Shown: in pieces, positions 10,345-38,147 of the stretch
How positions within the stretch are numbered: position 1 is the stretch's first letter
Layout: the number at the start of each line of letters is the position of its first letter
NCBI GenBank assembly: GCA_964512995.1
Contig: CAZELM010000009.1
Span: forward strand, 21,510-85,509
Source of the DNA: an uncultured bacterium
GTDB lineage: Bacteria > CSSED10-310
Length of the DNA stretch: 64,000 nucleotides
Direction: 5' to 3'
Notes under the pieces: generated by a model
Told to the model about the DNA's origin: nothing
The model's database searches: none
Seen by the model: the letters and a program-made list of their open reading frames with translations, nothing else
Made by a program: the position numbers and the translations under genes

Positions 10345-10376
10345 TGTCAGTCTCCAATAGTCAATCTTAAAAATGT

Positions 10377-12854: not shown

Positions 12855-12888
12855 GATAATAAGAAAATTTTTTCCGAGGCGTTGTTTT

Positions 12889-15351: not shown

Positions 15352-15401
15352 GTATGAACTCCCTTCCACTCATCATGTTGTTACCATGACGTGTGACGTT
15401 A

Positions 15402-16088: not shown

Positions 16089-17337
16089 ACCGAATTGCCT
16101 CCACCGGATTCAAACGTGCAGCCTGACGGGCAGGATATATTGTCGCGATAAAACTGATAAAAAGAGATGCTGAACAGATCGCTATAACATCCGTAACCTG
16201 TATCCTGAACGGCAGATAACTGATATAATAAACCTCCTGTTGGAGCCGTATCAATTGAAAAGTATCTGCGATCCAACTGATCGTCGTTCCAAACACACAT
16301 CCCAGAACAGTACCAACAAGGCCAATTATGATCCCCTCGGTCAGGAAAATCAAGCGGATGCTGTTATCCGTAGCTCCCATGGCTTTCAAAATTCCGATAT
16401 CCTTGTGTTTTTCCATGACCATCATCGTCAGAGAACTGATAATATTGAAAGATGCCACAAAGACAATTAACGTCAATATAATGAACATCGCCAGTTTTTC
16501 CAGCTTCAAAGCCGAAAAAAAAGCCCGGTTCATTTCTTTCCAGTCTCGGATAAAAAATCGGTTCCCCAGAATATGATGCAACCGATCCAGTATCTGAGAT
16601 GTTTCAAAAATATTGACGACTCTGATCTCAAATCCATTGATTCCACTCTCAATACCCAACAAATTCTGAGCCGCTTCCAGAGTGACATAAGCCATCGTAC
16701 TATCGTATTCATACATACCGGATCTGAAATAGCCGACAACTCGGTAGGTTTTTGATTTTGGAATCAATCCAACCGGAGTTAATCGATCAGCGGGAGACAT
16801 CAGGCTAACCAGATCTCCGACCTTGGCTCCCAGATTGGACGCCAATTCCAATCCGAGCACGATTCCTTCTTTGGGAAGCGGTGTTCCGTTTTCATCGGTT
16901 TTTTCAGGTAATTTGATGAGATCTTCGACTGACCCTCGCACCATATATCGCCTCAGATCGATAGTACCTTCCGGTGTAATATGGAGTCCTTTGAGAATGA
17001 TACCATCCGATCGATGCTCATGAGAGATCATCACTTTGCTGTATATAAATGGCTCGATTTCCTGAATTCCATTCACCTGTTTGATCTGGTCCATTACATT
17101 GTCAAAGTCAGGTATCCGGTCCTGCTGATCATTGGGGACGATCACGATATGAGCATTCGTCCCGAGAATTTTATCACGCAAATCCTCCTCAAATCCGGTC
17201 ATGACAGCCAGGACAATGATCAGAGCACCGACTCCAAGCGCTACTCCAAAGATCGAGATGAATGTGATAATAGAAATCATTGTCTGTTTCCGTCTGGCTC
17301 TCAGATATCTCAAGCCTATAAAATATTCAAATCGCAT
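16081..17337 (-). CDS. lolE: Lipoprotein-releasing ABC transporter permease LolC/E
   Basis: [52 protein letters not shown]. Confidence 0.9.
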   Translation of the reverse strand: MRFEYFIGLRYLRARRKQTMISIITFISIFGVALGVGALIIVLAVMTGFEEDLRDKILGTNAHIVIVPNDQQDRIPDFDNVMDQIKQVNGIQEIEPFIYSKVMISHEHRSDGIILKGLHITPEGTIDLRRYMVRGSVEDLIKLPEKTDENGTPLPKEGIVLGLELASNLGAKVGDLVSLMSPADRLTPVGLIPKSKTYRVVGYFRSGMYEYDSTMAYVTLEAAQNLLGIESGINGFEIRVVNIFETSQILDRLHHILGNRFFIRDWKEMNRAFFSALKLEKLAMFIILTLIVFVASFNIISSLTMMVMEKHKDIGILKAMGATDNSIRLIFLTEGIIIGLVGTVLGCVFGTTISWIADTFQLIRLQQEVYYISYLPFRIQVTDVIAICSASLFISFIATIYPARQAARLNPVEAIRYE

Positions 17338-17381
17338 ATCGATTCTTTCGTGTTCGTTCCAGATGGTCTGAATGGTAAAGG

Positions 17382-18495
17382 TTAACGGGCATGACGCAGA
17401 TAGGCTTCGATAAAATCATCCAAATCCCCGTCTAAAAAGTCATCCACTTTTCCAGTTTCCATATCTATCCGATGGTCTTTGATCATGCGGTAAGGATGCA
17501 GGACATAGGAGCGAATCTGGCTTCCCCAGGCAATATCCTTCTTTTCATTCTCCACTTTTTTTCTTTCCTCTTCCCTCTCGTTCATCTTCAGATCATAGAG
17601 CCGAGCTTTCAGAATCTTCATTGCAATATCCCGGTTACGGTGTTGTGATCGTTCATTTTGACATGAAATGATGATTCCAGTGGGAATATGAGTCACTCGG
17701 ACTGCCGAGTCAGTCGTATTCACGCCTTGTCCTCCAGGTCCGCTCGCACGGAAAACATCGATCCGTATATCGCTGGGATTGATTTCGATTTCAATATCCT
17801 CTTGTATCTCCGGATATACAAAAACGGAGGCGAATGATGTATGGCGGCGTGAGTTGGCGTCAAATGGCGAGATTCGGACCAGCCGATGCACGCCAATCTC
17901 CGCTTTCATATAGCCATATGCATAGCCGCCGGCAATCAGGAATGTGGCGCTTTTGATTCCAGCTTCATCACCCGGCTGAAAATCCAGCATCTCAAATTTG
18001 AATCCACGTCGTTCAGTCCAGCGGGTATACATACGCAGAAGCATTTGCGCCCAATCCTGGGACTCCGTTCCACCTGCACCGGAGTGAATGCTCACGATTG
18101 CATTGGCACTGTCGTGTTTCGCGCTAAACAGTGTTTCAAGGTCATATCGGGAGAACCGCTTCTCAAATACCCGAAGTGACTCTGATAATTCCAAATATAA
18201 CTCTGGATCAGTGTCTGATAATTCATCCAATACTTTAAGATCATTCCATTCCGTGTGAAATTGTGTCCAGCATTCGATAATCTTGGCCAGGTCAGCGCGT
18301 TCTTTTGTCACCAATCTAGCATTTTGTGGATTGTTCCAGAAATTCTCATCACTGATTTTTTTATCCAGTTCTTCTATTTTCATTCGTTTGCCAGCGATGT
18401 CAAAGACGCCTCGCAATATTAAAGAGATTGGATTCAAAGTCAGCCAGTGATTTCTGGATCGTTTTTTGTAGTGTCCTCAGTTCATCGGTGTTCAT
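17382..18495 (-). CDS. prfB: Peptide chain release factor 2, with programmed +1 frameshift after codon 31
   Basis: ATG 18495 opens 31 codons ending CTT TGA C (18405-18399), preceded by SD-like GAGGCG; the +1 frame carries SPF (RISPFD) and GGQ motifs. Confidence 0.95.
18399..18412 (-). promoter_or_regulatory. prfB programmed ribosomal frameshift site
   Basis: Minus strand reads GAGGCGT CTT TGA C. Confidence 0.93.
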
Positions 18496-20062
18496 ACGAA
18501 TCTCCTTTCATTCGTTTCTTTGAATAAATAACGAGCATGATTCCATAACAACAACTGATTACAAGACAAGCTTGTGCAAAAATATCTCCGAAGAGAAGGT
18601 AGAATGATGTTTCATTTCCCAGATGGACATCGCTTGTCAATGCTGTCGCATCGAACAGTGTCGATTGTGTAAGGATTCGTCCTCGCGTATCAACAGCTCC
18701 AGAGAATCCCGTATTGGCCGATCGAATAACAGGGCGCCGAGTTTCGACAGATCTGAAACGGGATGCGGAGAAATGCTGATATGCTGCGGAACTCCGACCA
18801 AACCATGCGTCATTGGTGATATTGCAGATCATATCAGCGTTCCGGCAAACCCGCTCCCGAACTAGATCCGGAAATATGTTTTCATAGCAAATTGTCATGG
18901 CGATCGATGCTTTGGGATGCCGAAACGGTTCAGGGGAGTTTCCTGGGACAAAATCCCCGATGGATTCCTGTACCATGCGGTTTACAAAAAACAAAATCCT
19001 GGATAATGGGACATATTCACCGAATGGAACAAGGTGTTCTTTATTATAGTATTGTTCAAACCCTTCAGGGGAGATAAACACCGCACTGTTGAATACATGA
19101 TCGTTGAGTCGATCTAGTGTTCCGGCAATAATCGGTGCTTTAGCCTGAGAGACGAGTTTTTGAATTTTGAAGCCGGGTGACTGATTCACATCTTTGGAGT
19201 AATTCCATGCATATCGATAATACAGAGGCAAAGCGGATTCAGACCACACAATGATATCTGGGTTCTGAGGCAGTTGGCTTTGTGTCAGAACAATGTGATC
19301 ATCCAGAATTTTATCAATGTTCGCTGGATCCCATTTCATGTTGAGATCGACATTTCCCTGAACAATGGTAACGCGGCAGGAAGGACCAGTCTCGGGTTGG
19401 GTGGTCCGGAAAAATCCGTAAAGCAGCATCATTCCCAACATGATACCTGCTATTACCAATTCCCGTCTCCAATGCATGTTCTGAGATGGCAGGAATAGTC
19501 CTGATCCAGCGCACCCAACGGCAACGATGATGAAAGAAATTCCGTAGAATGACCCCCAATCCGCATTTTGCAGAAGAATGAGCACAGAATGCTGGGATTG
19601 TCCCAGAGAGTTCCAGGGAAATCCGGTCATCAGGTGCGCCCGAAGGTATTCTCCAGCCACCCATGTAAAGGGGAGTGTGATAAACCATGAATAATTCAGA
19701 TGCAGTTTCAGGTAAGCTGATAATGTGAATGCACCAGCCGGATAGATCGCACAATAACCTGCCAGAAAACTCAGTAAAATCATGCTGGTCCATCTGGATA
19801 GTCCACCATATTCCATCATGGAGTTCGTTACCCATGCCAAACTGATCAGAAAACTGGCAAATGCAAAAAGCCATCCTCGTAAAAAGGTCTGACTGGGTGG
19901 AATGAGTGCAATTTGATAAAGGATCAGGATCAGTGAGAGCCATGCAAAAATCCAGATATCATAGAACGGGAATGACAATGCGAGCATCACTCCTGCAACA
20001 CATGGAAGTATCCATGCCGATATCCGGTCATACCATTCCCTAGTCAGTTTGATGCTTCCCAT
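18482..20062 (-). CDS. lnt: Apolipoprotein N-acyltransferase
   Basis: Multiple TM helices, GFPW, WSES, YNKEHLVPFGEY, ICYE, NDAWFG, RSANTG. Confidence 0.95.
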   Translation of the reverse strand: MGSIKLTREWYDRISAWILPCVAGVMLALSFPFYDIWIFAWLSLILILYQIALIPPSQTFLRGWLFAFASFLISLAWVTNSMMEYGGLSRWTSMILLSFLAGYCAIYPAGAFTLSAYLKLHLNYSWFITLPFTWVAGEYLRAHLMTGFPWNSLGQSQHSVLILLQNADWGSFYGISFIIVAVGCAGSGLFLPSQNMHWRRELVIAGIMLGMMLLYGFFRTTQPETGPSCRVTIVQGNVDLNMKWDPANIDKILDDHIVLTQSQLPQNPDIIVWSESALPLYYRYAWNYSKDVNQSPGFKIQKLVSQAKAPIIAGTLDRLNDHVFNSAVFISPEGFEQYYNKEHLVPFGEYVPLSRILFFVNRMVQESIGDFVPGNSPEPFRHPKASIAMTICYENIFPDLVRERVCRNADMICNITNDAWFGRSSAAYQHFSASRFRSVETRRPVIRSANTGFSGAVDTRGRILTQSTLFDATALTSDVHLGNETSFYLLFGDIFAQACLVISCCYGIMLVIYSKKRMKGDSYEHR

Positions 20063-27588: not shown

Positions 27589-28038
27589 TTATTGTAAATG
27601 ATCGAGATCATCCAAGTCTTTATGTCGGCCGGCTGCCAATTTATTCTTTCGGAGATCCTCCAGAGAAATCACGTTGGTGGGGATACCATCGATCATCGTC
27701 ACCTGACGATTCGGATAACATTCATCGAAACGTATCCCGCTCGCTCCCGTTATCAATTCAATCCGCACAGGAGGAACACCCATTCGAATCACCTTATCTT
27801 TTTCAAGAAACAAGTCATGTGAGAGTGACTTTTCGGGTATCCCAAAGTCGATCAAGGCAGCGATTGCTTTCATGGCATTGACAGGATCGATTGCAATCCA
27901 GATATCCAAATCACCGGTTGCTCGGGGATATCCGTAATAACCAACCGCATATCCCCCGACCAATAAATACTCAACGGCATGTAAGTTCAGCAATCTCAAG
28001 AAATCTTTGAAGTCTGGATGAAGTTCGATGGATTCCAT
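27589..28038 (-). CDS. Minimal nucleotidyltransferase (DUF6036/AbiEii-like), copy A
   Basis: VGGYAV...PRATGDLD and KLAAGRHKDLDD motifs. Confidence 0.85.
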   Translation of the reverse strand: MESIELHPDFKDFLRLLNLHAVEYLLVGGYAVGYYGYPRATGDLDIWIAIDPVNAMKAIAALIDFGIPEKSLSHDLFLEKDKVIRMGVPPVRIELITGASGIRFDECYPNRQVTMIDGIPTNVISLEDLRKNKLAAGRHKDLDDLDHLQ

Positions 28039-28180
28039 ACACTAGTCTCCTCTCCACTTCAATCGCATTGAAACGCTCTGCAACCGATCTCGATCGCCAG
28101 TATTCTTTGATATCACGGTCATCACCCAATGGTTTTATGATCAATTTGCTCTTATCGAGATGGGGTAAGTGTGTGTCCAT
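27971..28180 (-). CDS. Small partner protein of nucleotidyltransferase A
   Basis: EYWRSRSVAERFNA...VYG...RLQR pattern; overlaps the NTase start by 68 nt. Confidence 0.65.
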   Translation of the reverse strand: MDTHLPHLDKSKLIIKPLGDDRDIKEYWRSRSVAERFNAIEVERRLVYGIHRTSSRLQRFLEIAELTCR

Positions 28181-28268: not shown

Positions 28269-29816
28269 TCAGACTGAAATGACGCGATTGATTTCACCGA
28301 TCGAAGTAATGCCATTCAATGCCAGTCGAAACCCATCCTGGCGCAGCGAACGGAAGTCAGATGGCAATGCGGCAGTCAGATCTGCAACTGTTCCTCCGGA
28401 TTCCAGTTGTTTCCAGAATGCATCCTGCGGCCTGAGCATCTCCATGATGATCGCGCGACCCTGAAATCCCGTGTTGTGGCAATGGGAGCATCCTACCGAC
28501 CGGTACAATTGGGTTGGCGGCTCCTCAGTATCCAGAGATGCGATTTCTTCAGGAACCATTCGTTCTTTGCAGCGAGAACATAATTTTCGGACCAGCCGTT
28601 GGGAGATCACACCGATAATCATTTCTCGAAGAGTAATACCCGGAACACCCAGATCGAATAACAGTTTGATGGTCGCTACCGCTGAATGGGCATGCATTTG
28701 GGTAAGCACCAGATGCCCGCTTTGCGCGATTTGTGCCGCCAATCTGGCAATGCCGGTTTCCCGGATCTCACCGATCCCGATCACATCCGGATCCTGACGC
28801 ATCAGTGACTGGATGGCTGCCGTCATGGTCAGTCCGATCGAATGATTGACCTGCAATTGCTGGGTGCCTGGCAAATGGTACTCCACCGGATCTTCCACGC
28901 TGACAACATTGATGCTCTCTCTCTCGGCCAGTTCCTGGAGCATCAGATAGAGGGTGGTCGTTTTTCCGGAACCGGTCGGACCCGACACTACAACCATGCC
29001 ATATTCGGAATTCAGCCAGCTCCTGAATATTTTTAAATGATGATCGGAAATGCCGACATCTTCCAGACGAGGGGGGAATGCGGATTTATCGAGGAACCGA
29101 ATCACCACTTTTTCGGCGAACACAAAAGGAACAACCGATATTCGGAGATCCATGGTGATCATCGAATCGGGATTGCCTGGATCGGGTATCCGGATCAGGA
29201 TGCGGCCATCCTGAGGCAGTCTACGTTCCATGATATCCAATGCAGCCATTTTTTTGATCCGGCTGACAATCGCCGAGTGCTCCTCGGGCGTGAGATCGAT
29301 CGGCTGAGTCTGCAGAACGCCGTCGATCCGGAATCGGACTCGGACACAATCCCCGTGCGATTCGATGTGCATATCACTGGCTTTCGTGTGAATCGCCAGG
29401 AGGATGAGATCGTTGACACGGGTTGAGATCCGGTCATCTCCCTGTGACATCATTCTGGAATGAGCGTTTTCGAGCAGTTCTGCCGGCAGAGGCCGGATCG
29501 TGTATTTATCGGATTTGGATAATGCGGTTCCAACGTCGATCAGGCTGGAATCGAGAATGCCTTTCGTTTCTGCATAGTCGATGATGGATAACATGTTTTC
29601 ATCGAATATCCCGATTTGTGTCAACGCAGATGTGAAGGAAGCACCATCCTCGATAGATTTACTCATTGTTGTGATGATGGCGGACATGTCACTGGTTTCT
29701 TTGAATTCAGCAGAGATCGTTTCCATGGCTCTCATGAATGAAACACCATTGGCTAACAATCGGCCCAGCCGGATAAACATGTCGGATACATTCGTTCGGA
29801 TGTCCTGGGTTTTCAT
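28269..29816 (-). CDS. Fusion of a soluble GspF/PilC-type domain to a GspE/PilB-family secretion ATPase
   Basis: aa 1-100 T2SSF-like (LGRLLANGVSFMRAME...IEDGASFTSAL...YAETKGILD); then ASDMHIE, RFRIDG, RRLPQDGRI, GPTGSGKTT, EDPVEY, DPDVIGIGEIRE, SGHLVL, CxxC/CxxC; no TM helix seen. Confidence 0.85.
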   Translation of the reverse strand: MKTQDIRTNVSDMFIRLGRLLANGVSFMRAMETISAEFKETSDMSAIITTMSKSIEDGASFTSALTQIGIFDENMLSIIDYAETKGILDSSLIDVGTALSKSDKYTIRPLPAELLENAHSRMMSQGDDRISTRVNDLILLAIHTKASDMHIESHGDCVRVRFRIDGVLQTQPIDLTPEEHSAIVSRIKKMAALDIMERRLPQDGRILIRIPDPGNPDSMITMDLRISVVPFVFAEKVVIRFLDKSAFPPRLEDVGISDHHLKIFRSWLNSEYGMVVVSGPTGSGKTTTLYLMLQELAERESINVVSVEDPVEYHLPGTQQLQVNHSIGLTMTAAIQSLMRQDPDVIGIGEIRETGIARLAAQIAQSGHLVLTQMHAHSAVATIKLLFDLGVPGITLREMIIGVISQRLVRKLCSRCKERMVPEEIASLDTEEPPTQLYRSVGCSHCHNTGFQGRAIIMEMLRPQDAFWKQLESGGTVADLTAALPSDFRSLRQDGFRLALNGITSIGEINRVISV

Positions 29817-30295
29817 CGGATACCTCCTGGAAATGGAATGGTTTTTTTATACTCCTGCCGTGAATCCATGTCTTGGGTTCTGGATCGCTCCTCTTCCTGA
29901 TCCACTGCCCATTGCAGCAATCGATCCCGGCGGAAACGGATTTTTCCTGAGATGTTCAAGCAGGGTAACTGGTCGAGCAATGAGGCGATTTCCGATACGG
30001 ATATTTTCAGGAGCCTGGCTGCATCCTCGATATCCAGAATGTCATCCGGTATGGATTTGGGAGTCAGTTCATCACGAAGTGCTTTCCGAATTCGAAGATC
30101 TGCGGTTTCCGGGAGTGTCTGATTCAATGCAGCCTGGAGATTCTTCTTCAACGACTGAGCCGTCTGCTGCTTTTTCTGACAATCCGGACAGTCCGCGAGA
30201 TGGACTTCGAAGGCTTGCCGTTCACCGGAATCCAGTGCATCGTCCCAGTATGCATCAAATTGAGAACACGGATGTTCATGGGCGTTGGTATTCAT
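29813..30295 (-). CDS. Soluble zinc-binding anti-sigma (zf-HC2/ZAS) fused to an excisionase-like HTH (HTH_17)
   Basis: HLADCPDC (HxxxCxxC); ILDIEDAARLLKIS...GKIRFRRDRLLQW; 4-nt overlaps with both neighbours. Confidence 0.8.
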   Translation of the reverse strand: MNTNAHEHPCSQFDAYWDDALDSGERQAFEVHLADCPDCQKKQQTAQSLKKNLQAALNQTLPETADLRIRKALRDELTPKSIPDDILDIEDAARLLKISVSEIASLLDQLPCLNISGKIRFRRDRLLQWAVDQEEERSRTQDMDSRQEYKKTIPFPGGIR

Positions 30296-30849
30296 GTGAG
30301 AGACACTCCTTTCTCCGACAGGAATTGAATCATTTGCCTGCGTGCCCGATGAAGTTGAATTCGGACATTTTCCGCTGTCAGATTCAATGTCTGACCGATG
30401 CGCTCACTGTCCATCCCCTCAACTTCCTTCAGCAGGAGGATCATCCGCTGATTCGATGAAAGCCGCTGACATGCCATCTCGATCAACTCGCCAGCCATCA
30501 ACCTCCGTTCAGGATGCCGGACATCGATGAGCGAGGCCGGCATATTGGATTCATCGGAAGGCTTAAGGCTATCATCCGCCAATCCACGACGGCCGATATG
30601 GGTTCTGATGCGGTTGACTGCGATCTGAAAAATCCAGGATTGAAACCGTCCCATGGGCTGATATCGGGGCGCGTGCCGAATGAGCCGGATGAAAACCTCC
30701 TGCACTACATCTTCGGCATCCGGTTGATTGCGGAGGCAGTTCAGGGCGAATCGATAAATGCGATGGCGGTATCGTTCGTAGAGCATGTCGAACGCTGCCG
30801 TGACTCCCGCAGCAAACATCACCATCAATTCCTCATCACCAAAATTCAT
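30292..30849 (-). CDS. ECF sigma factor
   Basis: AFDMLYERY, DAEDVVQEVF, FQSWIFQIAVN (sigma2); LLKEVEGM..ERIGQTL....NVRIQLHRAR (sigma4). Confidence 0.93.
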   Translation of the reverse strand: MNFGDEELMVMFAAGVTAAFDMLYERYRHRIYRFALNCLRNQPDAEDVVQEVFIRLIRHAPRYQPMGRFQSWIFQIAVNRIRTHIGRRGLADDSLKPSDESNMPASLIDVRHPERRLMAGELIEMACQRLSSNQRMILLLKEVEGMDSERIGQTLNLTAENVRIQLHRARRQMIQFLSEKGVSLT

Positions 30850-30876: not shown

Positions 30877-30906
30877 TGTAACCCTGGTCCGTCCGGGAAT
30901 GTTACA
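30877..30906. promoter_or_regulatory. Inverted repeat TGTAAC-N18-GTTACA upstream of the ECF operon (ECF promoter or operator candidate)
   Basis: Perfect 6-bp inverted repeat, 28 nt upstream of the sigma ATG. Confidence 0.4.
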
Positions 30907-30956: not shown

Positions 30957-31427
30957 TTACTGAGTATCTTTTTTCTTTTTCACTGCCAGCTCTTTGACTT
31001 TTTTTAGAATTCGGGCATCTTCCTGATGTTTGGGTTTATTAATGTTCTGCTTGATACAGATCAAGCTGTCGATATCGATCCAGTTCGCAGGGCTTTCGCC
31101 GTAGTGTCCTACGATTCTGGATTCCCATGCAGTTGAAAAAGAAAGGGGTTCGGCGTCAAGGAAAAGATCTATTCGGTTCGGTGCGATTCCAAGTTGTGTG
31201 ATTTCTCTTGGTTTTGTGTGATCCAGTAATAAGGGGCTGCCGAACTCCAACAGCGCCAGATTGGCTTTGGAGACATTTTTTTCTTCGGGATCGATCCATA
31301 AATCCATATCCTTCGTATATCGGGGTTTCGCATGATAGATGAAAGCCAGACCGCCAATGATGAGATAACGTACTTTATGTTGGAAGAACAAGGTTAAGAG
31401 ATCCTCAAAGTCTTGAATTGTTTCCAT
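30957..31427 (-). CDS. Minimal nucleotidyltransferase (DUF6036/AbiEii-like), copy B
   Basis: IGGLAF...PRYTKDMDLW; RIDL; KPKHQED; homologous to copy A. Confidence 0.85.
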   Translation of the reverse strand: METIQDFEDLLTLFFQHKVRYLIIGGLAFIYHAKPRYTKDMDLWIDPEEKNVSKANLALLEFGSPLLLDHTKPREITQLGIAPNRIDLFLDAEPLSFSTAWESRIVGHYGESPANWIDIDSLICIKQNINKPKHQEDARILKKVKELAVKKKKDTQ

Positions 31428-31617
31428 GCAGCGTCCTTTTCTTGGCGTTATTGACCGTTTGTACATCCTTGTGAATGTGAACCAGCGCTGATAAGCGGTC
31501 TTCGGGTGAAAGTGACTGCCAGAACATTAAGTCCCAAAGTTCCGCATCATCGTGATCTTCGGTGCAGTGAGCAACCATTTTTTTCTTTCTCAAGCGGGAG
31601 CGTTCTTCTAGATCCAT
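31405..31617 (-). CDS. Small partner protein of nucleotidyltransferase B
   Basis: FWQSLSPEDRLSAL matches the W-x-S-x-S-x-x-[ED]R pattern of partner A; overlaps the NTase start. Confidence 0.65.
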   Translation of the reverse strand: MDLEERSRLRKKKMVAHCTEDHDDAELWDLMFWQSLSPEDRLSALVHIHKDVQTVNNAKKRTLHGNNSRL

Positions 31618-31859
31618 GCGTTTTCCTCTCCAATTTTTTTGCCATTTCACGACCATTGATTGTTATCCATTATGCAATTTTTCTGCTGAAAAGGTCCATT
31701 ATCTTTTGCGGCAGCTTCTCTTTTGTTAAAAAAAATGTATCTCAAAACAGAGATCTGTGCAATGAGTTTTAAGATTAACACTACTATTCATTATGGGATG
31801 ACGATTCTCTGTTCCTCTCCCCTGCCATTTTCCTGCTCATATCGTAGGTGTTGACAAAA

Positions 31860-31909
31860 ACCGGTGAGTATGATTAATGACTCACTGGTCATTATTAAGA
31901 CCGATGAGT
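31860..31909. promoter_or_regulatory. Probable TetR operator (three alternating half-sites)
   Basis: ACCGGTGAGT-N10-ACTCACTGGTC-N8-GACCGATGAGT next to TTGACA at 31851. Confidence 0.6.
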
Positions 31910-31929
31910 TTTATTATCAGGAGTTGCCG

Positions 31930-32550
31930 ATGAATGATTCACGAGAAGAACGTAAAGCCAAGTGGGATGCCATCAAACAGCAAGGCATCGTGAATGCGAC
32001 TGTCCGAGTGATCACCCGAGAAGGATTTCAGGGATTGACCATGGCCAAAGTCGCGCAGGAAGCGGGAGTTGCCAAAGCCACATTATATCTGTATTTCAAT
32101 GATAAAAACGATCTGTTGGACTCTGTGTGGCGAGCCGGTGTAGCGCCGATCATGGATGAAGTCGAATCGATTCTGACCAGTGACCTGTCCCCTCCACGGA
32201 TTCTTCAATTGATCACCTTGCGTCATCTGAATTATTTCGAGGAAAATAAAGACTTTTTCCGGTTTGTTCATTCCGAACGACTGAAATATCATGGGGAATG
32301 CGATCGGTATCAGGACATGGAGTATCAGCGGCTGGTCGATCAGGTGGCTCATGTGATCGAGCGTGGCATTCGAACCGGCTGCTTCAAGGAAGTCAACACC
32401 CGAAAATTCGCCACGATGTTTATCGAATCCAATATCGCACTGATCAATTTTCGTATTTTGAGCGGTGATCAGAGTCCATTTGAGGAAGACGGTCATTTGT
32501 TTACCGATATATTCCTCTATGGAATTGCCCGGGAGGCAAAAACAGGATGA
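31930..32550 (+). CDS. TetR/AcrR family transcriptional regulator
   Basis: TMAKVAQEAGVAKATLYLYF HTH; CAGGAG RBS before ATG 31930. Confidence 0.93.
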   Translation: MNDSREERKAKWDAIKQQGIVNATVRVITREGFQGLTMAKVAQEAGVAKATLYLYFNDKNDLLDSVWRAGVAPIMDEVESILTSDLSPPRILQLITLRHLNYFEENKDFFRFVHSERLKYHGECDRYQDMEYQRLVDQVAHVIERGIRTGCFKEVNTRKFATMFIESNIALINFRILSGDQSPFEEDGHLFTDIFLYGIAREAKTG

Positions 32551-33953
32551 AACACTATTTGCACGGATTTTTTATGCACCTCATCGTGTTGTTTCTGTGG
32601 AGTTTGGGACAGTGGACTCCATCAACTTCCGCTCAGAATCCGGACTCACAGACAGTGATCACTGGGGAGTTATCTCTGGAAGATACAGTGAAGCTGACGC
32701 TGAACTACAATCGTGCTCTCCAGACCGTGATGCAGGAAAAAGAAGTGGCCAAAGGGCAAATCTGGGAAGCGTATGGGTACGCATTCCCCCATATCAGTGT
32801 GGACGGCTCCTATACCCGATTGGATGATGTCAGCAGCTTCCAGATAGACGATCAGGTTATCTCAATGGGTTCTTTGGACAATTACTCCTCCAACCTGAAA
32901 ATTGTCCAGCCGGTTTATCATGGGGGAGCGATCAAGGCGGGTGTGAGCGCTGCAAAAATTTATCGGGAGTTGGCGGATGAGAACATCCGGAATGCCGTTC
33001 AGAATGTAGTGTATCAGGCAACTCGAGCCTACTATCAGGTCGTTCTGGCCGAAAAGCAGCATGAAGTTCAGAAGGAGTTTCAATCGTTGGCTGAGCAGCA
33101 TCTGAAGGATGTCGAAGCGCGGCGGAAATACGGTGTTGCATCGGAGTTCAATGTGCTTCGGGCTGAAGTAGAGCGATCCAATGCCAATGCGCAATCGATC
33201 GCTTATATGAATCAAATGCATCAGGCTCGGCATCAGTTACTGAAGACAATGGGAGTATCTCAGGACAGCACGATCCAGTTGATGGATGTTCTGGAGTACA
33301 CATCTTCAGAGATAACTGAGAACGAGGCACTGGAAAGAGCAATGGCACACCGCGCGGATATCTCCGGTTCGGATCTGAAAGTCCGTTTACAGCGTGAATC
33401 ATTGGCTAATGCCCGCAGTGCTTACTGGCCGAGTGTCGATGCGTATTACAATTTCAATGTATCCAAACCGGAGTCGCAATCCGCTTCCATTAATGAGTGG
33501 GGCACGGCCTGGCAGGCGGGTCTCACGGTCCGGTTCGATATCTTCACCATGAATCGTACGGGCAGAATCGTTCAGGAGAAAGCCCGTCTGAATCAGCAGT
33601 CCATCAGCCGGATGGATGTCCGGGAGCAGGTTGTGTTCGAGGTAAGGAGCGCGCTCAGTGCATTGCAGGATGCGGATCAGTTCGTCAAAGCACAGGAACT
33701 GACTGTTGATCAGGCCAATGAAGGGCTGCGGCTGGCGGAAGTTGGGTATCGCGAAGGAACTTTGGATCAGGTGTCGGTGATGGAAGCCCGGGCAGCGCTC
33801 CATCAGGCAAGGCTTCTGTATTGGAACAGCCTTTTCAACCATCAGATGGCTCGATTGGAGCTTCAGCGAGCCATCGGGCTGTTGCCTGCTTTACCGGTCG
33901 ATCAAACCAACGGGGCGGCTCCCATACCCGATCCGAAAACAGGAGAACAGTGA
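32547..33953 (+). CDS. TolC-family outer membrane efflux protein
   Basis: Signal peptide, two OEP repeats, YREG...QVSVMEAR. Confidence 0.92.
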   Translation: MKHYLHGFFMHLIVLFLWSLGQWTPSTSAQNPDSQTVITGELSLEDTVKLTLNYNRALQTVMQEKEVAKGQIWEAYGYAFPHISVDGSYTRLDDVSSFQIDDQVISMGSLDNYSSNLKIVQPVYHGGAIKAGVSAAKIYRELADENIRNAVQNVVYQATRAYYQVVLAEKQHEVQKEFQSLAEQHLKDVEARRKYGVASEFNVLRAEVERSNANAQSIAYMNQMHQARHQLLKTMGVSQDSTIQLMDVLEYTSSEITENEALERAMAHRADISGSDLKVRLQRESLANARSAYWPSVDAYYNFNVSKPESQSASINEWGTAWQAGLTVRFDIFTMNRTGRIVQEKARLNQQSISRMDVREQVVFEVRSALSALQDADQFVKAQELTVDQANEGLRLAEVGYREGTLDQVSVMEARAALHQARLLYWNSLFNHQMARLELQRAIGLLPALPVDQTNGAAPIPDPKTGEQ

Positions 33954-33954
33954 T

Positions 33955-36900
33955 ATGTGGCTATCTGATATATCGATCCGGCGTCCCGTCACGACGCTGA
34001 CCATCATGGCCGCCATCATCATATTTGGATGGCTGGGTTTCAGACATATGGGTATGGATCTCATGCCGGAGGTGGACTTCCCCATCGTTACGGTTCAGAC
34101 AACGTTACTCGGTGCGAGCCCGGAAGTCATGGATCAGGATGTGACGGATGTACTGGAACAGCAGATCAATACGATCAGTGGTCTTCGGACATTGCAATCT
34201 CAAAGTTACGAGGGTTTTTCACAGATCGTTGCGGAGTTCGAGTTGTCGAAAGATGTCGATGTCGCCGCCAATGAGGTTCGGGATAAGGTCAATCTGGCAA
34301 AAACAGAATTGCCAAGTGATATTGATGAACCACTCGTTGATAAATTCGATCTGGGTTCCATGCCCGTGATGTGGGTATCGGTGTCGAGTACCGGGAATTA
34401 TCGGACTCTGGCGGAATTTGCCGAAAAATTCGTCAAGGAACGCCTTCAATCTGTCATGGGAGTCGGTAACATCGAGGTGAGTGGATTGCGGGAGCGGGAG
34501 ATCCGGGTTTGGCTCGATCCGGACCGCATGCAGGCTCGCAATCTCACCGCTCAGGATATTATGGCCGCGATTCAGCTCAAGCACATCGAACTTCCCGGTG
34601 GCCGGATCGAAACTGACGCTCAGGAATACACGATCAAAGTTCAGGGAGAGTTTGATTCCGTTGACGCATTTTCCAATCTCGTTATCACTGAGCATGATGG
34701 CGCAGTCACGTATCTGAAAGATGTGGCGCGCATCGATGACTCTTCGGAAGATCTGCGCAGTATCGCCAAATACAATGGTAAACCGACTATTGGTCTGGGT
34801 ATCCGGAAGCAGTCTGGTGCTAACTCGATCGCAGTTGCCCGGAGCATCAGAACGCAACTGACTGAACTTCAGAAATACGCTCCACCGAACACGACGATCG
34901 AGGTTGCCTATGATACGACCAAATTTATCGAGCAATCGATGGATGGCGTTCAGGAAGATATCATTTTCGGTATCATACTGACTGCGATCATCATGTATAT
35001 CTTTCTGCGGGAAATCCGGATCACGTTCATCAGCATTCTGTCGATACCGATCTCGCTGATCGGGGGATTCATCGCCATGAATGCCATGGATTTCACGGTG
35101 AACAATCTTACGATGCTGGCGATGTCTCTGGCAGTCGGGCTGGTGATCGATGATACCATCGTCGTTCTCGAGAATATCTTCAGACATGTCGAGAACGGCA
35201 AAAATCGAAAAGAAGCCTCCAGTATCGGTGCATCGGAGGTTACACTGGCGGTTATTGCATCCACATCATCGATTGCGGCCGTCTTCATTCCCGTTGCCTT
35301 TATGAAAGGGGTCATTGGCCGGTTTTTCTTCCAGTTCGGTCTGACCGTCGCTTTGACAGTGGTCATATCGGCATTGGTATCATTGACATTGACACCGTTC
35401 ATGTGTTCCCGGCTGGTCCGTCATCAAAAATCACACGGCCGGTTTTATAATTTTTTCGAGAATTTTTTTACCGGAATGGAGCGATTTTATTCCGGAATAC
35501 TCAGGTATGCCGTTCATCACCGGGTGTTGATGGTCGCGCTGGCTATCCTGTTTTTTATCTCCGCTTTTGCCATATTGCCTTTTATTGGCAAGGAGTTCAT
35601 GACATCCGCGGATGAGAGTCGTTTCAATATCAGCCTGGAGATGCCAACCGGAACATCATTGAAACAGACCGGAGAACGGGTCCTGGATATGGAAAAAGTG
35701 CTGGAGGTCATGCCGGAGGTCGAAAACTTCATGACGTCGATCGGTTCCAGCAGCGGCGGCATGGTGAACAAGGGGAACATCATTGTCAATCTGGTGCCCA
35801 AAAAAGCACGGACGCTCAGCCAGAACGATCTCATGCAACAGGTCCGTGACGCATATTCGAAGTATACGGATATGATATTTTCCGTTGGACAGGTTAACGA
35901 AATGGCCGGTGGCCGTGGAGCGGATGTCGAATTCATCATCCAGGGACCCGGTGTGGAGCAGTTGGATCAGGTTTCGTCGAATATTGTCCATACACTTAAA
36001 ATGGACCCCCGCTTTATCGATGTGGATACGGATATCCGATTGAACAAACCGGATATCAAGGTGCATGTCAACCGGCATCTGGCGGATGATCTGGGAGTGG
36101 ATGTCCGCTCCATCTCCAACGAAATCTATGCGCTGTTCGGCGGTATTTCGATTGCGAAGTATAAGGAAGGTGGTTATCGATATGATATCGGGGTTCGTGC
36201 ATTGCCGGAATTTCGGAAAACACCATCCGATCTGGAAAAAATAAGCATCAGAAATCGACGCGGCGAATTGATCAAAGCACCGAATCTGATCACGTATGAA
36301 GTCAGCCGGGGTCCGAATGCGGTAAACCGGTACAATCGGCGACTGGCTGTAACGTTGTTATCCAATCTTAAGGGAATTCAGGCCGGAGAAGCGATCACGA
36401 CCATCGAAGAAATCGCAGACCGGTTGTTGCCCAAAGATGGGAAGTGGAATATTCAGCCCAGTGGTATGAGTAAGATTTTTCTGGAGTCTTTCCAGTATCT
36501 GACCGAAGCGCTGCTCCTTTCGATTCTGGTTATCTACATGGTTCTGGCCATTCAATTCGAATCATTCATCCATCCATTCACGATCATGATCTCGCTGCCA
36601 TTGACAATGATCGGAGTGTTTGGCGCTCTGTTGCTGACCGGCGAAACACTCAATATTTTCTCATTTATCGGAATCATCATGCTGATGGGAATTGTGACAA
36701 AGAATGGAATATTGCTGGTTGATTTTGCCAATCAGGCCAGAGAACTGGGAGTCTCCAAAGTCGATGCGATTCTTCAGGCTGGCCAGTTGCGCTTGCGTCC
36801 CATTCTGATGACGGCAGCCTCGACTGCCATCGGCGTTGTTCCGGTAGCATTGGCTTTGAGTGAAGGCGGAGAGATGCGGGCACCCATGGCCATAGCAGTC

Positions 36901-37062
36901 ATCGGTGGTATCACAACATCCACTCTTCTGACTCTCTTAATCATCCCGGTGATTTATCTCGTCAATGAGGATCTGTCCGAACGTTTCATTCGATTGATTT
37001 ATGCCATTCGTGCCCTTTTCGGTAAGCATGAGATGGTTGTATCACAGGAGAATAAACAATGA
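33955..37062 (+). CDS. RND efflux permease (AcrB/HAE1 family)
   Basis: SIRRPV, VIDDTIVVLEN, TKNGILLVD, RLRPILMT. Confidence 0.95.
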   Translation: MWLSDISIRRPVTTLTIMAAIIIFGWLGFRHMGMDLMPEVDFPIVTVQTTLLGASPEVMDQDVTDVLEQQINTISGLRTLQSQSYEGFSQIVAEFELSKDVDVAANEVRDKVNLAKTELPSDIDEPLVDKFDLGSMPVMWVSVSSTGNYRTLAEFAEKFVKERLQSVMGVGNIEVSGLREREIRVWLDPDRMQARNLTAQDIMAAIQLKHIELPGGRIETDAQEYTIKVQGEFDSVDAFSNLVITEHDGAVTYLKDVARIDDSSEDLRSIAKYNGKPTIGLGIRKQSGANSIAVARSIRTQLTELQKYAPPNTTIEVAYDTTKFIEQSMDGVQEDIIFGIILTAIIMYIFLREIRITFISILSIPISLIGGFIAMNAMDFTVNNLTMLAMSLAVGLVIDDTIVVLENIFRHVENGKNRKEASSIGASEVTLAVIASTSSIAAVFIPVAFMKGVIGRFFFQFGLTVALTVVISALVSLTLTPFMCSRLVRHQKSHGRFYNFFENFFTGMERFYSGILRYAVHHRVLMVALAILFFISAFAILPFIGKEFMTSADESRFNISLEMPTGTSLKQTGERVLDMEKVLEVMPEVENFMTSIGSSSGGMVNKGNIIVNLVPKKARTLSQNDLMQQVRDAYSKYTDMIFSVGQVNEMAGGRGADVEFIIQGPGVEQLDQVSSNIVHTLKMDPRFIDVDTDIRLNKPDIKVHVNRHLADDLGVDVRSISNEIYALFGGISIAKYKEGGYRYDIGVRALPEFRKTPSDLEKISIRNRRGELIKAPNLITYEVSRGPNAVNRYNRRLAVTLLSNLKGIQAGEAITTIEEIADRLLPKDGKWNIQPSGMSKIFLESFQYLTEALLLSILVIYMVLAIQFESFIHPFTIMISLPLTMIGVFGALLLTGETLNIFSFIGIIMLMGIVTKNGILLVDFANQARELGVSKVDAILQAGQLRLRPILMTAASTAIGVVPVALALSEGGEMRAPMAIAVIGGITTSTLLTLLIIPVIYLVNEDLSERFIRLIYAIRALFGKHEMVVSQENKQ

Positions 37063-38147
37063 AGTGTGTGATCAAAAACAGTATTTTTATCAGCATCATC
37101 ATTACTGCTCTATCATTCGTGGCTTGTAGTCAGAATGTGGCAGTGGAAAGTCAGGAACCCGAAACCAGGTCGATGGTCAATACTGTGAAAACTGAAGAAG
37201 TCCAGATTCGTGATTTCAATCCGGTTTACGAGACAACCGGCTCTCTGATGGCACACATTCAGACTCAACTCAAAGTGCAGGTGGGTGGTGAAATCGAAAT
37301 GCTCCCCGCCGAAATCGGTTCGAATGTTAAAAAAGGAGATGTCCTCGTGCAGATCCGGAGAGTGCATTATGAACTGGCATTGAAACAGGCTGAAGCGAAC
37401 CTGCAGCAGGCTCGGGTGGTCTTGAAAGATCGCGAACGGGAAAAAGCGCGGATGACCAACTTGTTCGGGGAGGGGTTTGCCACCGAACAAATGCGGGACC
37501 AATCGGTTACCGGCTATGAACAGGCACTCGCCGCTTTCCAGCAGGCGCAGGCTGTCCGGGATACTGCTTCTCAGGCTGTTAAGGATACCACCATTGTTGC
37601 GCCGTACGATGGCGTGGTTACTGGGCGTTATGTCGATCTGGGAGGCTATGTCGGACAAGGTGGGGAAGTTCTGGATATGATGGATCTGTCTGTTCTTAAT
37701 GCGGAGATTGAGATCCCGGAGCGGTATGCTGGTCAGATTGCGTCCGGGATACCTGTCATTGTAAAAATTTCGTCACGGAACGAGGAACGCTCCGGTGAAA
37801 TCCGCGCTGTCAATCCCCGCATCGAGTCAGCGTCCCGTACGTTTTTAGTTAAAGTCGAAGTCCCCAATCCCGATTTGTCGCTGCAATCCGGATTGTTCTG
37901 TACGGTTACGATTCCACTGCCCGAACAGAAAAACCAGATCGCCATTTCCAGATATGCGGTGATCCGGGATGAAGGGCGGTCCAAAGTCTGGGTAGTTGAA
38001 AACGGTAAAGCGTATCAACGGGTTATCACGGAGGGCCCGGCATTGGATGGATATGTGATGATCACTGATGGTCTGAAGCGAACGGATCGGGTTGTTGTGG
38101 ATGGCATGGGCGGTCTCAGTGAAGGAGCTGATGTTTCTGAGACATGA
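37059..38147 (+). CDS. RND periplasmic adaptor (MFP)
   Basis: Lipobox FVAC, VKKGDVL lipoyl half, APYDGVV, helical hairpin. Confidence 0.93.
   Translation: MKCVIKNSIFISIIITALSFVACSQNVAVESQEPETRSMVNTVKTEEVQIRDFNPVYETTGSLMAHIQTQLKVQVGGEIEMLPAEIGSNVKKGDVLVQIRRVHYELALKQAEANLQQARVVLKDREREKARMTNLFGEGFATEQMRDQSVTGYEQALAAFQQAQAVRDTASQAVKDTTIVAPYDGVVTGRYVDLGGYVGQGGEVLDMMDLSVLNAEIEIPERYAGQIASGIPVIVKISSRNEERSGEIRAVNPRIESASRTFLVKVEVPNPDLSLQSGLFCTVTIPLPEQKNQIAISRYAVIRDEGRSKVWVVENGKAYQRVITEGPALDGYVMITDGLKRTDRVVVDGMGGLSEGADVSET

What the first reader, a model, noticed from the sequence alone, without database searches (positions are those of the whole stretch)
28269..29816. Soluble GspF/PilC domain fused N-terminally to a GspE/PilB ATPase
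Seen: aa 1-100 look like one cytoplasmic T2SSF bundle with no following TM helix. It replaces the usual N-terminal MshEN/N1 domain, while Walker A/B, Asp box, His box and the Zn-binding CxxC pairs look intact. Knowledge: PilC/GspF is the membrane platform that PilB/GspE docks onto, normally as a separate protein. Inference: an ATPase carrying its own docking partner may be self-activated, autoinhibited, or a decoy uncoupled from the membrane machine.
Basis: partly seen in the sequence, partly recalled or inferred. Interest (0 to 1): 0.68.

Follow-up and report, generated by a model that had tools for sequence, protein, structure and literature searches.

The report
Soluble PilC-PilB ATPase in sigma/anti-sigma operon
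A pilus or secretion-type motor ATPase has lost its membrane partner, carries a soluble copy of that partner's docking domain on its own N-terminus, and is always encoded as the third gene of a small sigma/anti-sigma regulatory operon, which suggests the motor now works in gene regulation and not in building pili.

Summary
ORF 28269-29816 (-) encodes a 515-aa protein. Residues 1-101 are one six-helix T2SSF (PilC/GspF cytoplasmic) domain with no TM helix. A ~25-aa linker follows, then a complete PilB/GspE core with Walker A/B, Asp box, His box and the tetra-Cys site intact. No MshEN/N1 domain is present. It is not an assembly join: two independent metagenome runs assemble it identically, and 50 other proteins among the 265 best-scoring ATPase homologues carry 1-3 soluble T2SSF domains ahead of the ATPase.

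In all 13 loci examined, 10 reached from the ATPase and 3 from the anti-sigma, the gene order is ECF sigma, then a soluble ZAS anti-sigma with a C-terminal Xis/BldC-type winged helix, then the fused ATPase. Genes usually overlap by 4 nt, flanks are unrelated, and no pilus or secretion genes lie nearby. A conserved ECF-type promoter (TGTAACA-N15-GGGTT) precedes the sigma gene.

My best reading, which is inferred, is a cytoplasmic three-part sigma switch in which the ATPase is a regulatory partner of the anti-sigma. The main rival is a sigma-induced alternative pilus motor. I found no description in the searchable literature. Host: probably candidate division CSSED10-310, from sludge.

The parts
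30879..30906 (-). ECF-type promoter of the cassette: TGTAACA (-35-like), about 15 nt, GGGTTA (-10-like), 56 nt upstream of the sigma start codon
   Evidence: The same motif sits 46-56 nt upstream of the sigma gene in all six close-family loci; L002 has GGGTAT instead of GGGTT. It is the only copy in the 64-kb window, with 0.42 expected. The strict form occurs only at the cassette promoters across about 145 kb of window plus five loci. Function as a promoter is inferred.
30292..30849 (-). ECF sigma factor, 185 aa (sigma-2 plus sigma-4)
   Evidence: Pfam Sigma70_r2 9e-19 and Sigma70_r4_2 1.7e-11; TIGR02937 sigma70-ECF at 102 bits against a cut-off of 42.9. Orthologues at 42-54 % identity in five other loci.
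29813..30295 (-). Soluble anti-sigma factor, 160 aa. N-terminal ZAS anti-sigma domain (C10, H32-x3-C36-x2-C39), C-terminal Xis/BldC-type winged helix (aa ~85-122) and a long helix (123-150). Overlaps the sigma gene by 4 nt and the ATPase gene by 4 nt.
   Evidence: Pfam zf-HC2 2e-8 and HTH_17 2.3e-5. H32/C36/C39 are invariant in 10 loci. No TM helix. AF2 pLDDT 85; Foldseek finds RslA (3HUG, ~31 % identity) for the N-domain and RdfS, BldC, Xis, gpNu1 (probability 0.97-1.0, TM-score to target 0.6-0.76) for the C-domain.
29823..29828 (-). Shine-Dalgarno AGGAGG of the ATPase gene, embedded in the anti-sigma's C-terminal Pro-Gly-Gly codons
   Evidence: Read directly from the sequence. The same ttcccNGGAGG arrangement occurs in the five close-family loci that have the FPGG tail, so conservation of that tail may reflect translational coupling.
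28269..29816 (-). Whole gene for the T2SSF-T2SSE fusion ATPase (515 aa plus stop)
29514..29816 (-). aa 1-101: soluble T2SSF (PilC/GspF cytoplasmic) six-helix bundle; hallmark AE..G.LD (aa 82-89) is invariant
29439..29513 (-). aa 102-126: linker in the place where canonical PilC/GspF is expected to have its first TM helix; low model confidence
   Evidence: pLDDT 60-64; no hydrophobic segment. The position of the TM helix in canonical PilC is from my own knowledge.
29082..29438 (-). aa 127-245: N2 domain of the ATPase
   Evidence: T2SSE profile match; superposition on PilB/PilF. The domain boundary is estimated from the model's secondary structure.
28272..29081 (-). aa 246-515: C-terminal ATPase domain with Walker A (28953-28982), Asp box, Walker B, His box and the tetra-Cys Zn site (28479-28580)
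   Evidence: Invariant columns; fold match.

Best explanation
The gene is real. It encodes a cytoplasmic PilB/GspE-family hexameric ATPase whose usual N1/MshEN docking domain has been replaced by one soluble copy of the cytoplasmic domain of its normal membrane partner, PilC/GspF. It is the third, translationally coupled gene of a self-contained and probably autoregulated operon: ECF sigma, then a soluble zinc-binding (ZAS) anti-sigma with a C-terminal Xis/BldC-type winged helix, then the ATPase. Shown here: the architecture, the intact catalytic motifs, the absence of TM helices, the invariable three-gene linkage, the absence of pilus or secretion genes nearby, and the shared ECF-type promoter. 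Inferred: the ATPase does not drive a pilus. It is a regulatory partner in the sigma switch. The fused T2SSF domain probably sits on the N2 domain of the ring, as PulF cytoplasmic domains do on PulE in the published 6:3 model. That would give a soluble motor-plus-rotor-head unit. This unit binds the extra C-terminal domain of the anti-sigma, and ATP binding or hydrolysis alters how tightly the anti-sigma holds the sigma, either releasing or resetting it, possibly together with thiol oxidation of the ZAS site.
For: Architecture. Not an artefact: identical assembly in two runs at ~80x; nine full-length relatives at 39-48 % identity; 51 T2SSF(1-3)-T2SSE proteins (this one plus 50 others) among the 265 ATPase homologues fetched (the best 120 and the best 150 hits of those two searches, not a random sample). 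Linkage: 10 of 10 loci reached from the ATPase, covering the 1x, 2x and 3x T2SSF and Clp_N-T2SSF classes, and 3 of 3 loci reached from the anti-sigma, show sigma then anti-sigma then ATPase with unrelated flanks. 8 of 12 sigma/anti-sigma junctions overlap by 4 nt (2 more overlap by 11-23 nt), and 7 of 12 anti-sigma/ATPase junctions overlap by 1-4 nt. Specificity: 0 of 41 generic ZAS anti-sigma loci carry the winged-helix domain or the ATPase. The ZAS+wHTH anti-sigma forms a discrete set of 89 clusters at 75 bits or more, against 57 bits or less for ordinary excisionase-type HTH_17. Fused ATPase cores form essentially one clade, 45 of 49. No T4P/T2SS genes in the 64-kb window. Conserved ECF-type promoter. 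The 1:1 Cyto-domain:N2D pairing in the PulE6:PulF3 model (PMC10790770) matches one fused domain per subunit. Some relatives add a Clp_N domain in front, which by my own knowledge is a substrate or adaptor-binding domain in Clp unfoldases; that suggests the N-terminal array binds proteins.
Against: No physical interaction between the ATPase and the anti-sigma was tested, and no multimer model could be run. Conserved operon membership is equally expected for a sigma-controlled output gene. PilB-type ATPases are not known to remodel soluble proteins. The winged helix has a conserved R-x-R-R wing (R120, R122, R123); by my own knowledge this is a usual DNA-binding feature of this fold, so it may bind DNA and not the ATPase. 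The conserved FPGG tail of the anti-sigma is explained by the ATPase's Shine-Dalgarno sequence and cannot be counted as a docking motif. Only 2.5-8 kb around each relative, less where a contig ends, and 64 kb here were inspected, so pilus genes elsewhere in the genomes are not excluded. No transcript data exist.
Confidence: 0.45

Rival explanations
1. Output gene: the sigma/anti-sigma pair is an ordinary stress switch, for example a thiol-oxidative one via the ZAS site, and the ATPase is simply its co-transcribed target. It would be an alternative, stress-induced motor that acts in trans on a type IV pilus, T2SS or Tad platform encoded elsewhere. The fused T2SSF domain would serve to co-assemble with the resident PilC/GspF, or to stand in for one of its cytoplasmic domains.
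For: ECF operons often carry their own targets (PMC7826278). All catalytic motifs are intact and the core is 37-40 % identical to genuine pilus extension motors. By my own knowledge, isolated cytoplasmic domains of PilC and EpsF crystallise as dimers. The promoter motif shows that the cassette is at least self-regulated.
Against: No pilus or secretion gene is next to the cassette in any of 13 loci, although such ATPases are normally clustered with their platform. The linkage holds through deep divergence and through changes in domain number. The anti-sigma carries a family-specific extra domain found only with this ATPase, which a mere output relationship does not explain.
Confidence: 0.27
2. 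DNA-linked function: the anti-sigma's Xis/BldC-type winged helix binds DNA, at the cassette promoter or elsewhere. The ATPase would then act on a nucleoprotein complex, or the small protein would be both an anti-sigma and a transcription factor, with the ATPase modulating its DNA binding.
For: Foldseek matches to the DNA-binding proteins RdfS, BldC, Xis, TraN and gpNu1. Near-invariant wing arginines R120, R122 and R123.
Against: No conserved operator-like repeat beyond the ECF -35/-10 elements was seen upstream. By my own knowledge, PilB-family ATPases are not known to act on DNA directly.
Confidence: 0.13
3. Catalytically dead decoy or decaying remnant of a pilus locus.
For: Loss of the TM segments and of the neighbouring pilus genes. 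One relative (L134) carries a frameshift.
Against: Every catalytic and Zn-binding motif is invariant over sequences only 39-48 % identical. The family is large and essentially monophyletic.
Confidence: 0.03
4. Assembly or annotation artefact joining a pilC fragment to pilB.
For: None found.
Against: Identical contigs from two runs with no joints or variants; a continuous ORF with its own Shine-Dalgarno sequence; the same architecture in dozens of independent samples.
Confidence: 0.01

Closest known systems
PilB / GspE / PilF type IV pilus and T2SS extension ATPases (Pfam T2SSE; e.g. Geobacter PilB 5TSH, Thermus PilF 5OIU, Vibrio GspE 4KSR)
   Same: N2 plus C-terminal ATPase domains; Walker A/B, Asp and His boxes; tetra-Cys Zn site; 37-40 % identity; TM-score to target up to 0.91. 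By my own knowledge, Thermus PilF carries three N-terminal GSPII/MshEN-type domains, which would parallel the 1-3 N-terminal T2SSF domains seen in this clade.
   Different: No N1/MshEN domain; a PilC-type cytoplasmic bundle instead. Never next to pilin, platform or secretin genes, and always behind a sigma/anti-sigma pair.
PilC / GspF / PulF platform proteins (Pfam T2SSF; EpsF and PilC Cyto1 six-helix bundles; PulF trimer model, PMC10790770)
   Same: One six-helix cytoplasmic domain with the conserved (G/A)E..G.L motif. A published model pairs each such domain 1:1 with an ATPase N2 domain.
   Different: No TM helices, so it cannot be a membrane platform or ion channel. One domain here (two or three in relatives), and covalently joined to the ATPase.
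Soluble ZAS anti-sigma / ECF sigma pairs (RsrA-SigR, RshA-SigH, RslA-SigL)
   Same: ECF sigma followed by an overlapping gene for an anti-sigma with H-x3-C-x2-C plus an upstream Cys, like the ZAS anti-sigma RslA that the fold search recovers; an autoregulatory-looking ECF promoter. The anti-sigma here has no TM helix; by my own knowledge RsrA and RshA are likewise cytoplasmic.
   Different: The anti-sigma carries an extra Xis/BldC-type winged helix plus a long helix, and a third obligatory gene, the ATPase, follows. I found no description of this context in the ECF reclassification paper's main text, and its supplements were not available.
Secretion-coupled sigma control (FlgM/sigma-28 export through the flagellar T3SS; BtrA/BtrS in Bordetella T3SS), cited from my own knowledge
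   Same: Precedent for a secretion-machine component being wired to an anti-sigma/sigma pair.
   Different: In those systems the anti-sigma is exported through a complete membrane machine. Here there is no membrane component, and the ATPase family is different.
ComGA of Bacillus subtilis (a T2SSE ATPase with a regulatory side role in growth arrest), cited from my own knowledge
   Same: A PilB-family ATPase that also has a regulatory function.
   Different: ComGA still belongs to a pilus operon and has no T2SSF domain or sigma/anti-sigma linkage.

Membership tests
GspE/PilB secretion ATPase (T2SSE, PF00437) | N2 plus CTD fold with Walker A, Asp box, Walker B and His box | tested here: met
   Pfam E 6e-103; motifs invariant; Foldseek to PilB/PilF/GspE with E down to 7e-42 and TM-score to target 0.87-0.91.
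GspE/PilB secretion ATPase (T2SSE, PF00437) | Tetra-cysteine Zn site of the extension-ATPase subgroup | tested here: met
   C413, C416, C443 and C446 are invariant in 10 of 10 sequences.
GspE/PilB secretion ATPase (T2SSE, PF00437) | N-terminal N1 / MshEN (T2SSE_N) domain that anchors the enzyme to GspL/PilM or binds c-di-GMP | tested here: not met
   No PF05157 hit. The canonical relatives nearly all have it.
GspE/PilB secretion ATPase (T2SSE, PF00437) | Encoded with platform, pilin or secretin genes of a T4P/T2SS | tested here: not met
   None in the 64-kb window or in the 2.5-8 kb fetched on each side, less where a contig ends, in 12 other loci. The rest of the genomes could not be inspected.
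GspE/PilB secretion ATPase (T2SSE, PF00437) | Hexamer formation and ATP hydrolysis | not testable with these tools
   Only a monomer model could be made.
GspF/PilC platform protein (T2SSF, PF00482) | Six-helix cytoplasmic bundle with the conserved E..G.L motif | tested here: met
   31.2 bits against GA 25.2; NCBIfam ComGB/GspF/PilC hits; PDB PilC hits; six helices in the model; E83/G86/L88/D89 invariant.
GspF/PilC platform protein (T2SSF, PF00482) | Three TM helices (polytopic inner-membrane protein) | tested here: not met
   Kyte-Doolittle 19-residue maximum of 1.53, in the ATPase core. Profile positions 91-125 are unmatched. Across the fused relatives scanned by Pfam, profile matches end at 86-90 of 125, and their hydrophobic maxima lie in the ATPase core or within the T2SSF bundle itself, with no TM-like segment after it.
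GspF/PilC platform protein (T2SSF, PF00482) | Two tandem T2SSF repeats | tested here: not met
   One repeat in this protein. Relatives have two or three, also without TM helices.
ECF sigma / class I (ZAS) anti-sigma module | Sigma with only regions 2 and 4 | tested here: met
   (TIGR02937 at 102 bits against a cut-off of 42.9).
ECF sigma / class I (ZAS) anti-sigma module | Adjacent anti-sigma with an H-x3-C-x2-C zinc motif and a helical anti-sigma domain | tested here: met
   zf-HC2 E 2e-8; H32/C36/C39 invariant in 10 loci and at least 90 % conserved in 77 sequences; fold match to RslA.
ECF sigma / class I (ZAS) anti-sigma module | Anti-sigma binds and inhibits its sigma; release on a signal | not testable with these tools
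   Inferred from homology only.
ECF sigma / class I (ZAS) anti-sigma module | Autoregulatory ECF promoter (AAC-type -35, GTT-type -10) | tested here: inconclusive
   A conserved TGTAACA-N15-GGGTT lies upstream of six sigma genes, with TGAAAC..CGTT variants in distant loci. No transcription data exist.
Xis/BldC/MerR-type winged helix (HTH_17, PF12728) | Fold of helix-turn-helix plus beta-hairpin wing | tested here: met
   Pfam 25 bits, just below GA 27. The AF2 model has H89-96, H100-105 and strands 112-115 and 118-122. Foldseek probability 0.97-1.0 to RdfS, BldC, Xis and gpNu1.
Xis/BldC/MerR-type winged helix (HTH_17, PF12728) | Sequence-specific DNA binding | not testable with these tools
   Only the conserved wing arginines were seen.
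Known anti-phage defence systems (PADLOC) | Match to a defence-system protein model | tested here: not met
   Only weak P-loop-level hits of 21 bits or less.

The most novel reading that the evidence does not exclude
A PilB-type rotary motor, with the head domain of its PilC rotor fused in cis and all membrane parts discarded, has been taken over as an ATP-driven mechanical switch. It acts on a dedicated anti-sigma factor through that factor's extra winged-helix domain to release or re-capture an ECF sigma. This would be a previously unrecognised, motor-driven mode of sigma-factor control, spread over several candidate and PVC-related phyla.
Probability: 0.3. Interest if true: 0.85.

Novelty: new variant of a known kind. 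Interest (0 to 1): 0.72.

Why it matters
There are two reasons.

**A soluble model of the motor-platform interface.** How the PilB/GspE ring couples to PilC/GspF is a long-standing open question in type IV filament biology, and it currently rests on models (PMC10790770). Here the ATPase and the PilC cytoplasmic domain occur naturally in one soluble chain at 1:1 stoichiometry. That makes it an attractive object for crystallography or cryo-EM of this interface without detergents.

**A possible new kind of ECF regulation.** ECF sigma factors are a major signalling family. The regulatory mechanisms reviewed for them centre on membrane-bound anti-sigma factors (PMC8999054; PMC7826278). An obligatory secretion-type ATPase partner was not mentioned in the literature I could search. 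If the ATPase controls the anti-sigma, this is a new input mechanism and a case of a machine part being reused as a regulator. Even if the ATPase is only an output, the cassette defines a compact three-gene unit with its own promoter that could be tested directly in a heterologous host.

Tried and rejected
1. Genome-collection scan with the family alignment.

2. Metagenome scan with the anti-sigma alignment. With three sequences (A5) it used the generic ZAS motif, and all 41 loci were ordinary ZAS anti-sigmas. I reused them as a negative control: 0 of 41 have the wHTH domain or the ATPase. Many of those contigs are short, so the control is weaker than the number suggests.

3. Literature searches for T2SSE/T2SSF fusions, ECF plus T2SSE, PilB plus anti-sigma, and zf-HC2 plus HTH_17 found no description. 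The main text of the ECF reclassification paper has no mention and its supplementary tables are not held, so an entry in ECF Hub cannot be excluded.

4. PADLOC defence models gave only P-loop noise.

5. RNA runs: none found, so co-transcription is unproven.

6. A regulon search with the promoter motif found only the cassette's own promoter in the window and in five loci.

7. The FPGG tail of the anti-sigma was considered as a docking peptide and rejected. Its codons are the ATPase's Shine-Dalgarno sequence.

8. P0374, an apparent 334-aa sigma-anti-sigma fusion, looks like an out-of-frame read-through in a high-GC assembly and was not used as Rosetta-stone evidence.

9. Assigning the fused domain to PilC Cyto1 or Cyto2 was ambiguous. 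The NCBIfam and PDB hits go to both.

10. The first NJ bootstrap run timed out. I repeated it on a subsample of 49 fused and 60 canonical cores. It is a distance tree with 20 replicates, so monophyly is indicative only.
Full report
**1. The observation**

The minus-strand ORF at 28269-29816 is 515 aa.

- **Pfam.** One T2SSF domain lies on aa 16-101: 31.2 bits against a gathering threshold of 25.2, covering profile positions 4-90 of 125. One full T2SSE domain lies on aa 126-511 (E 6e-103). No T2SSE_N/MshEN domain is found.
- **NCBIfam.** The N-terminal ~100 residues independently hit ComGB, GspF, HofC, XpsF and PilC models. The remainder hits GspE and PilB models over their core only.
- **PDB by sequence.** The N-terminal 128 residues find M. 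xanthus PilC (3JC8, E 1.9e-5, both cytoplasmic repeats) and the crystallised cytoplasmic domain of T. thermophilus PilC (2WHN).
- **Structure model.** An AF2 model built on a 10-sequence alignment has pLDDT 86. It shows six helices over aa 3-101, a poorly defined linker over 102-126, and then a core that superposes on Geobacter PilB and Thermus PilF (TM-score to target 0.87-0.91).
- **Motifs.** Walker A (279-288), Asp box (308-312), Walker B (342-350), His box (367-375) and four cysteines (413, 416, 443, 446) are invariant in the family.
- **TM helices.** No hydrophobic stretch of TM character exists in this protein. In more distant fused relatives, the hydrophobic maxima are a buried core helix or the conserved helix-turn-helix inside the T2SSF bundle. 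Canonical soluble PilB proteins score in the same range.

**2. Not an artefact**

Two separate sludge-metagenome runs assemble the 4.2 kb around the gene identically, at about 80x depth, with no joints or variants. The ORF has its own AGGAGG Shine-Dalgarno sequence. Nine other full-length proteins from different samples share the architecture at 39-48 % identity.

An exhaustive profile search of 1.8 billion cluster representatives listed 150 best hits. Combined with the 120, 51 of these 265 best-scoring ATPase homologues (this protein plus 50 others) have 1, 2 or 3 T2SSF domains N-terminal to the ATPase. Some have an extra Clp_N domain in front, and one has the form T2SSFx2-T2SSEx2. In the ten fused relatives scanned by Pfam, the T2SSF profile matches end at position 86-90 of 125. 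A distance tree of the ATPase cores puts 45 of 49 fused proteins on one side of a single branch, together with one sequence that consists of the core only. This suggests one origin followed by duplication of the domain.

**3. Context, the main new finding**

In the window, the ATPase gene overlaps by 4 nt with an upstream 160-aa ORF, which in turn overlaps by 4 nt with a 185-aa ORF.

- **The 185-aa protein** is an ECF sigma factor.
- **The 160-aa protein** has a zf-HC2 anti-sigma motif (C10, H32-x3-C36-x2-C39), a weak HTH_17 match, and no TM helix. Its AF2 model (77 sequences, pLDDT 85) has two domains. The first is a helical anti-sigma domain resembling M. tuberculosis RslA. The second is a winged helix resembling RdfS, BldC, Xis and lambda gpNu1, followed by a long helix.

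The same three genes in the same order occur in every relative I could inspect.

- **Five close-family loci:** L001, L002/3, L004, L005/6, L007.
- **Four loci from distant architecture classes:** L088 (2x T2SSF), L089 (Clp_N plus 2x), L090 (3x, from Lentisphaerota, on 18 contigs) and L091 (1x, distant).
- **Three loci reached from the opposite direction.** These anti-sigma homologues were picked only for sitting on long contigs: L133, L135 and L134. In L134 the ATPase gene is split by one frameshift.

That makes 13 of 13, with unrelated flanking genes and no pilin, platform, secretin or other pilus or secretion gene within reach.

The rest of the 64-kb window encodes outer-membrane biogenesis, lipoprotein, efflux and peptidase functions, but nothing of a pilus or T2SS.

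The middle proteins of ten loci align over their full length, with H32, C36 and C39 invariant and a conserved winged helix. A profile of only their C-terminal half retrieves 89 clusters of 64-170 aa proteins (nearly all 145-170 aa; the shortest look like truncated calls) at 75 bits or more. A clear gap then separates them from ordinary 68-aa excisionases at 57 bits or less. As a control, 41 loci with generic ZAS anti-sigmas contain neither the winged helix nor the ATPase, although many of those contigs are short.

Upstream of the six close-family sigma genes lies a shared ECF-type promoter, TGTAACA-N15-GGGTT (GGGTAT in L002). The distant loci have TGAAAC/TGAACC...CGTT. The motif occurs nowhere else in the window, and its strict form occurs nowhere else in five loci.

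**4. Host**

RF2 from the window is 66-71 % identical to proteins named candidate division CSSED10-310, and one family member (P0004) carries the same label. Other members are labelled Lentisphaerota and Hydrogenedentes. The presence of BamA, Skp, LpxA/D and Lnt shows a diderm envelope.

**5. How it most likely works**

*Shown:* a soluble, catalytically intact PilB-type ATPase with an in-cis PilC cytoplasmic domain, obligatorily co-encoded and translationally coupled with an ECF sigma and a soluble ZAS anti-sigma that carries a family-specific extra domain.

*Established knowledge:* PilB/GspE hexamers act on the cytoplasmic domains of PilC/GspF. In the PulE6:PulF3 AlphaFold model, each of the six PulF cytoplasmic domains contacts one PulE N2 domain through the conserved surfaces of both (PMC10790770).

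*Inference:* the fused domain keeps the hallmark AE..G.LD motif. With a 25-residue tether it can sit on an N2 domain, which gives the same 6:6 stoichiometry without any membrane part.

Three observations point the same way:

- The only constant neighbours are the sigma and the anti-sigma.
- The anti-sigma's additional winged-helix domain is found only in this context.
- Some relatives add a Clp_N domain in front, which by my own knowledge is a protein-binding domain.

From these I consider it most likely (about 0.45) that the ATPase is a regulatory partner of the anti-sigma. Nucleotide-dependent movement of the N2/T2SSF unit would change the anti-sigma's grip on sigma, possibly integrated with oxidation of the zinc site.

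The main rival (about 0.27) is that the ATPase is only the sigma's output: an alternative motor for a pilus machine encoded elsewhere, with the T2SSF domain co-assembling with the resident PilC. A DNA-linked role through the winged helix (about 0.13) is also open, because the wing arginines are conserved. The decoy and artefact readings are essentially excluded.

**6. Caveats**

- No interaction, activity or transcript data exist.
- No multimer model could be made.
- Only limited flanks were seen in the relatives, so pilus genes elsewhere in those genomes are not excluded.
- The tree is a small NJ analysis with 20 replicates.
- The conserved FPGG tail of the anti-sigma coincides with the ATPase's ribosome-binding site and is not evidence of docking.
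- The supplementary tables of the ECF classification could not be read, so prior listing of this genomic context in ECF Hub cannot be ruled out. The searchable literature contains no description.

**7. Verdict**

The finding is real and more interesting than first described. It is a member of an undescribed, fairly widespread clade of soluble PilC-PilB fusion ATPases, and these are the third component of a conserved ECF sigma / ZAS-wHTH anti-sigma cassette. I rate it a new variant of known kinds (PilB-family ATPase; ECF sigma module), with interest 0.72.

Noticed in passing
window 27589-28038 (-) and 30957-31466 (-); small ORFs 27971-28180 (-) and 31405-31656 (-): The sigma/anti-sigma/ATPase cassette is bracketed by two paralogous DUF6036/DUF2204-like nucleotidyltransferase genes (36 % identity, E 2e-23). 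Each is preceded by a small overlapping ORF, so they may be toxin-antitoxin-like pairs. This bracketing is not seen in the other loci.
   Followed up: partly
window 55023-61025 (-): A 2000-aa protein combining DUF4011, AAA_11/AAA_12 (superfamily 1 helicase), an MTES_1575 restriction-endonuclease-like domain and DUF3320. It is a large helicase-nuclease of the kind often linked to defence.
   Followed up: no
window 459-3332 (-): A 957-aa protein with an unusual combination: Peptidase_MA_2, PD40 (TolB-like beta-propeller) repeats and a C-terminal Omp85 barrel.
   Followed up: no
window 7971-20062: A diderm envelope and housekeeping block: LpxA, LpxD, Skp (OmpH), BamA, a ClpB/ClpC-like AAA+ protein, LolD/LolC-like ABC transporter, RF2 and Lnt. 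The closest named relatives of RF2 (66-71 %) are from candidate division CSSED10-310.
   Followed up: partly
window 17382-18437 (-): The RF2 ORF starts at TTG, and the database gene call is 333 aa against 351 aa here. Whether the usual programmed +1 frameshift of prfB is present upstream was not checked.
   Followed up: no
window 31864-38147 (+): An RND efflux operon in the order TetR regulator, outer-membrane factor (OEP), AcrB-type pump, HlyD-type adaptor. It is divergently oriented from the cassette region.
   Followed up: no
proteins P0123-P0139 and P0121: Proteins of about 1000 aa with two complete T2SSE ATPase units in tandem (MshEN-T2SSE-T2SSE), plus one T2SSFx2-T2SSEx2 protein. These covalent double motors turned up among the best hits.
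   Followed up: partly
proteins P0151, P0198; locus L089 7001-9307: Clp_N (the N-terminal repeat of Clp unfoldases) is fused in front of T2SSF-T2SSE in some relatives, still behind a sigma and a wHTH anti-sigma.
   Followed up: partly
locus L134 6413-8380: The T2SSFx2-T2SSE gene of this locus is split by a single frameshift near profile position 314. This is either a long-read assembly error or a pseudogene.
   Followed up: partly
window 29823-29828 and the equivalent positions in L001, L002, L004, L007: Dual coding: the anti-sigma's conserved C-terminal Phe-Pro-Gly-Gly is encoded by ttYccNGGAGG, which is also the Shine-Dalgarno sequence of the downstream ATPase gene.
   Followed up: yes
protein P0162 (Lentisphaerota; MBT3378165.1 and others): Public annotation calls this 3x T2SSF-T2SSE protein 'Flp pilus assembly complex ATPase component TadA'. 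Given its architecture and context, that is probably a misannotation.
   Followed up: no
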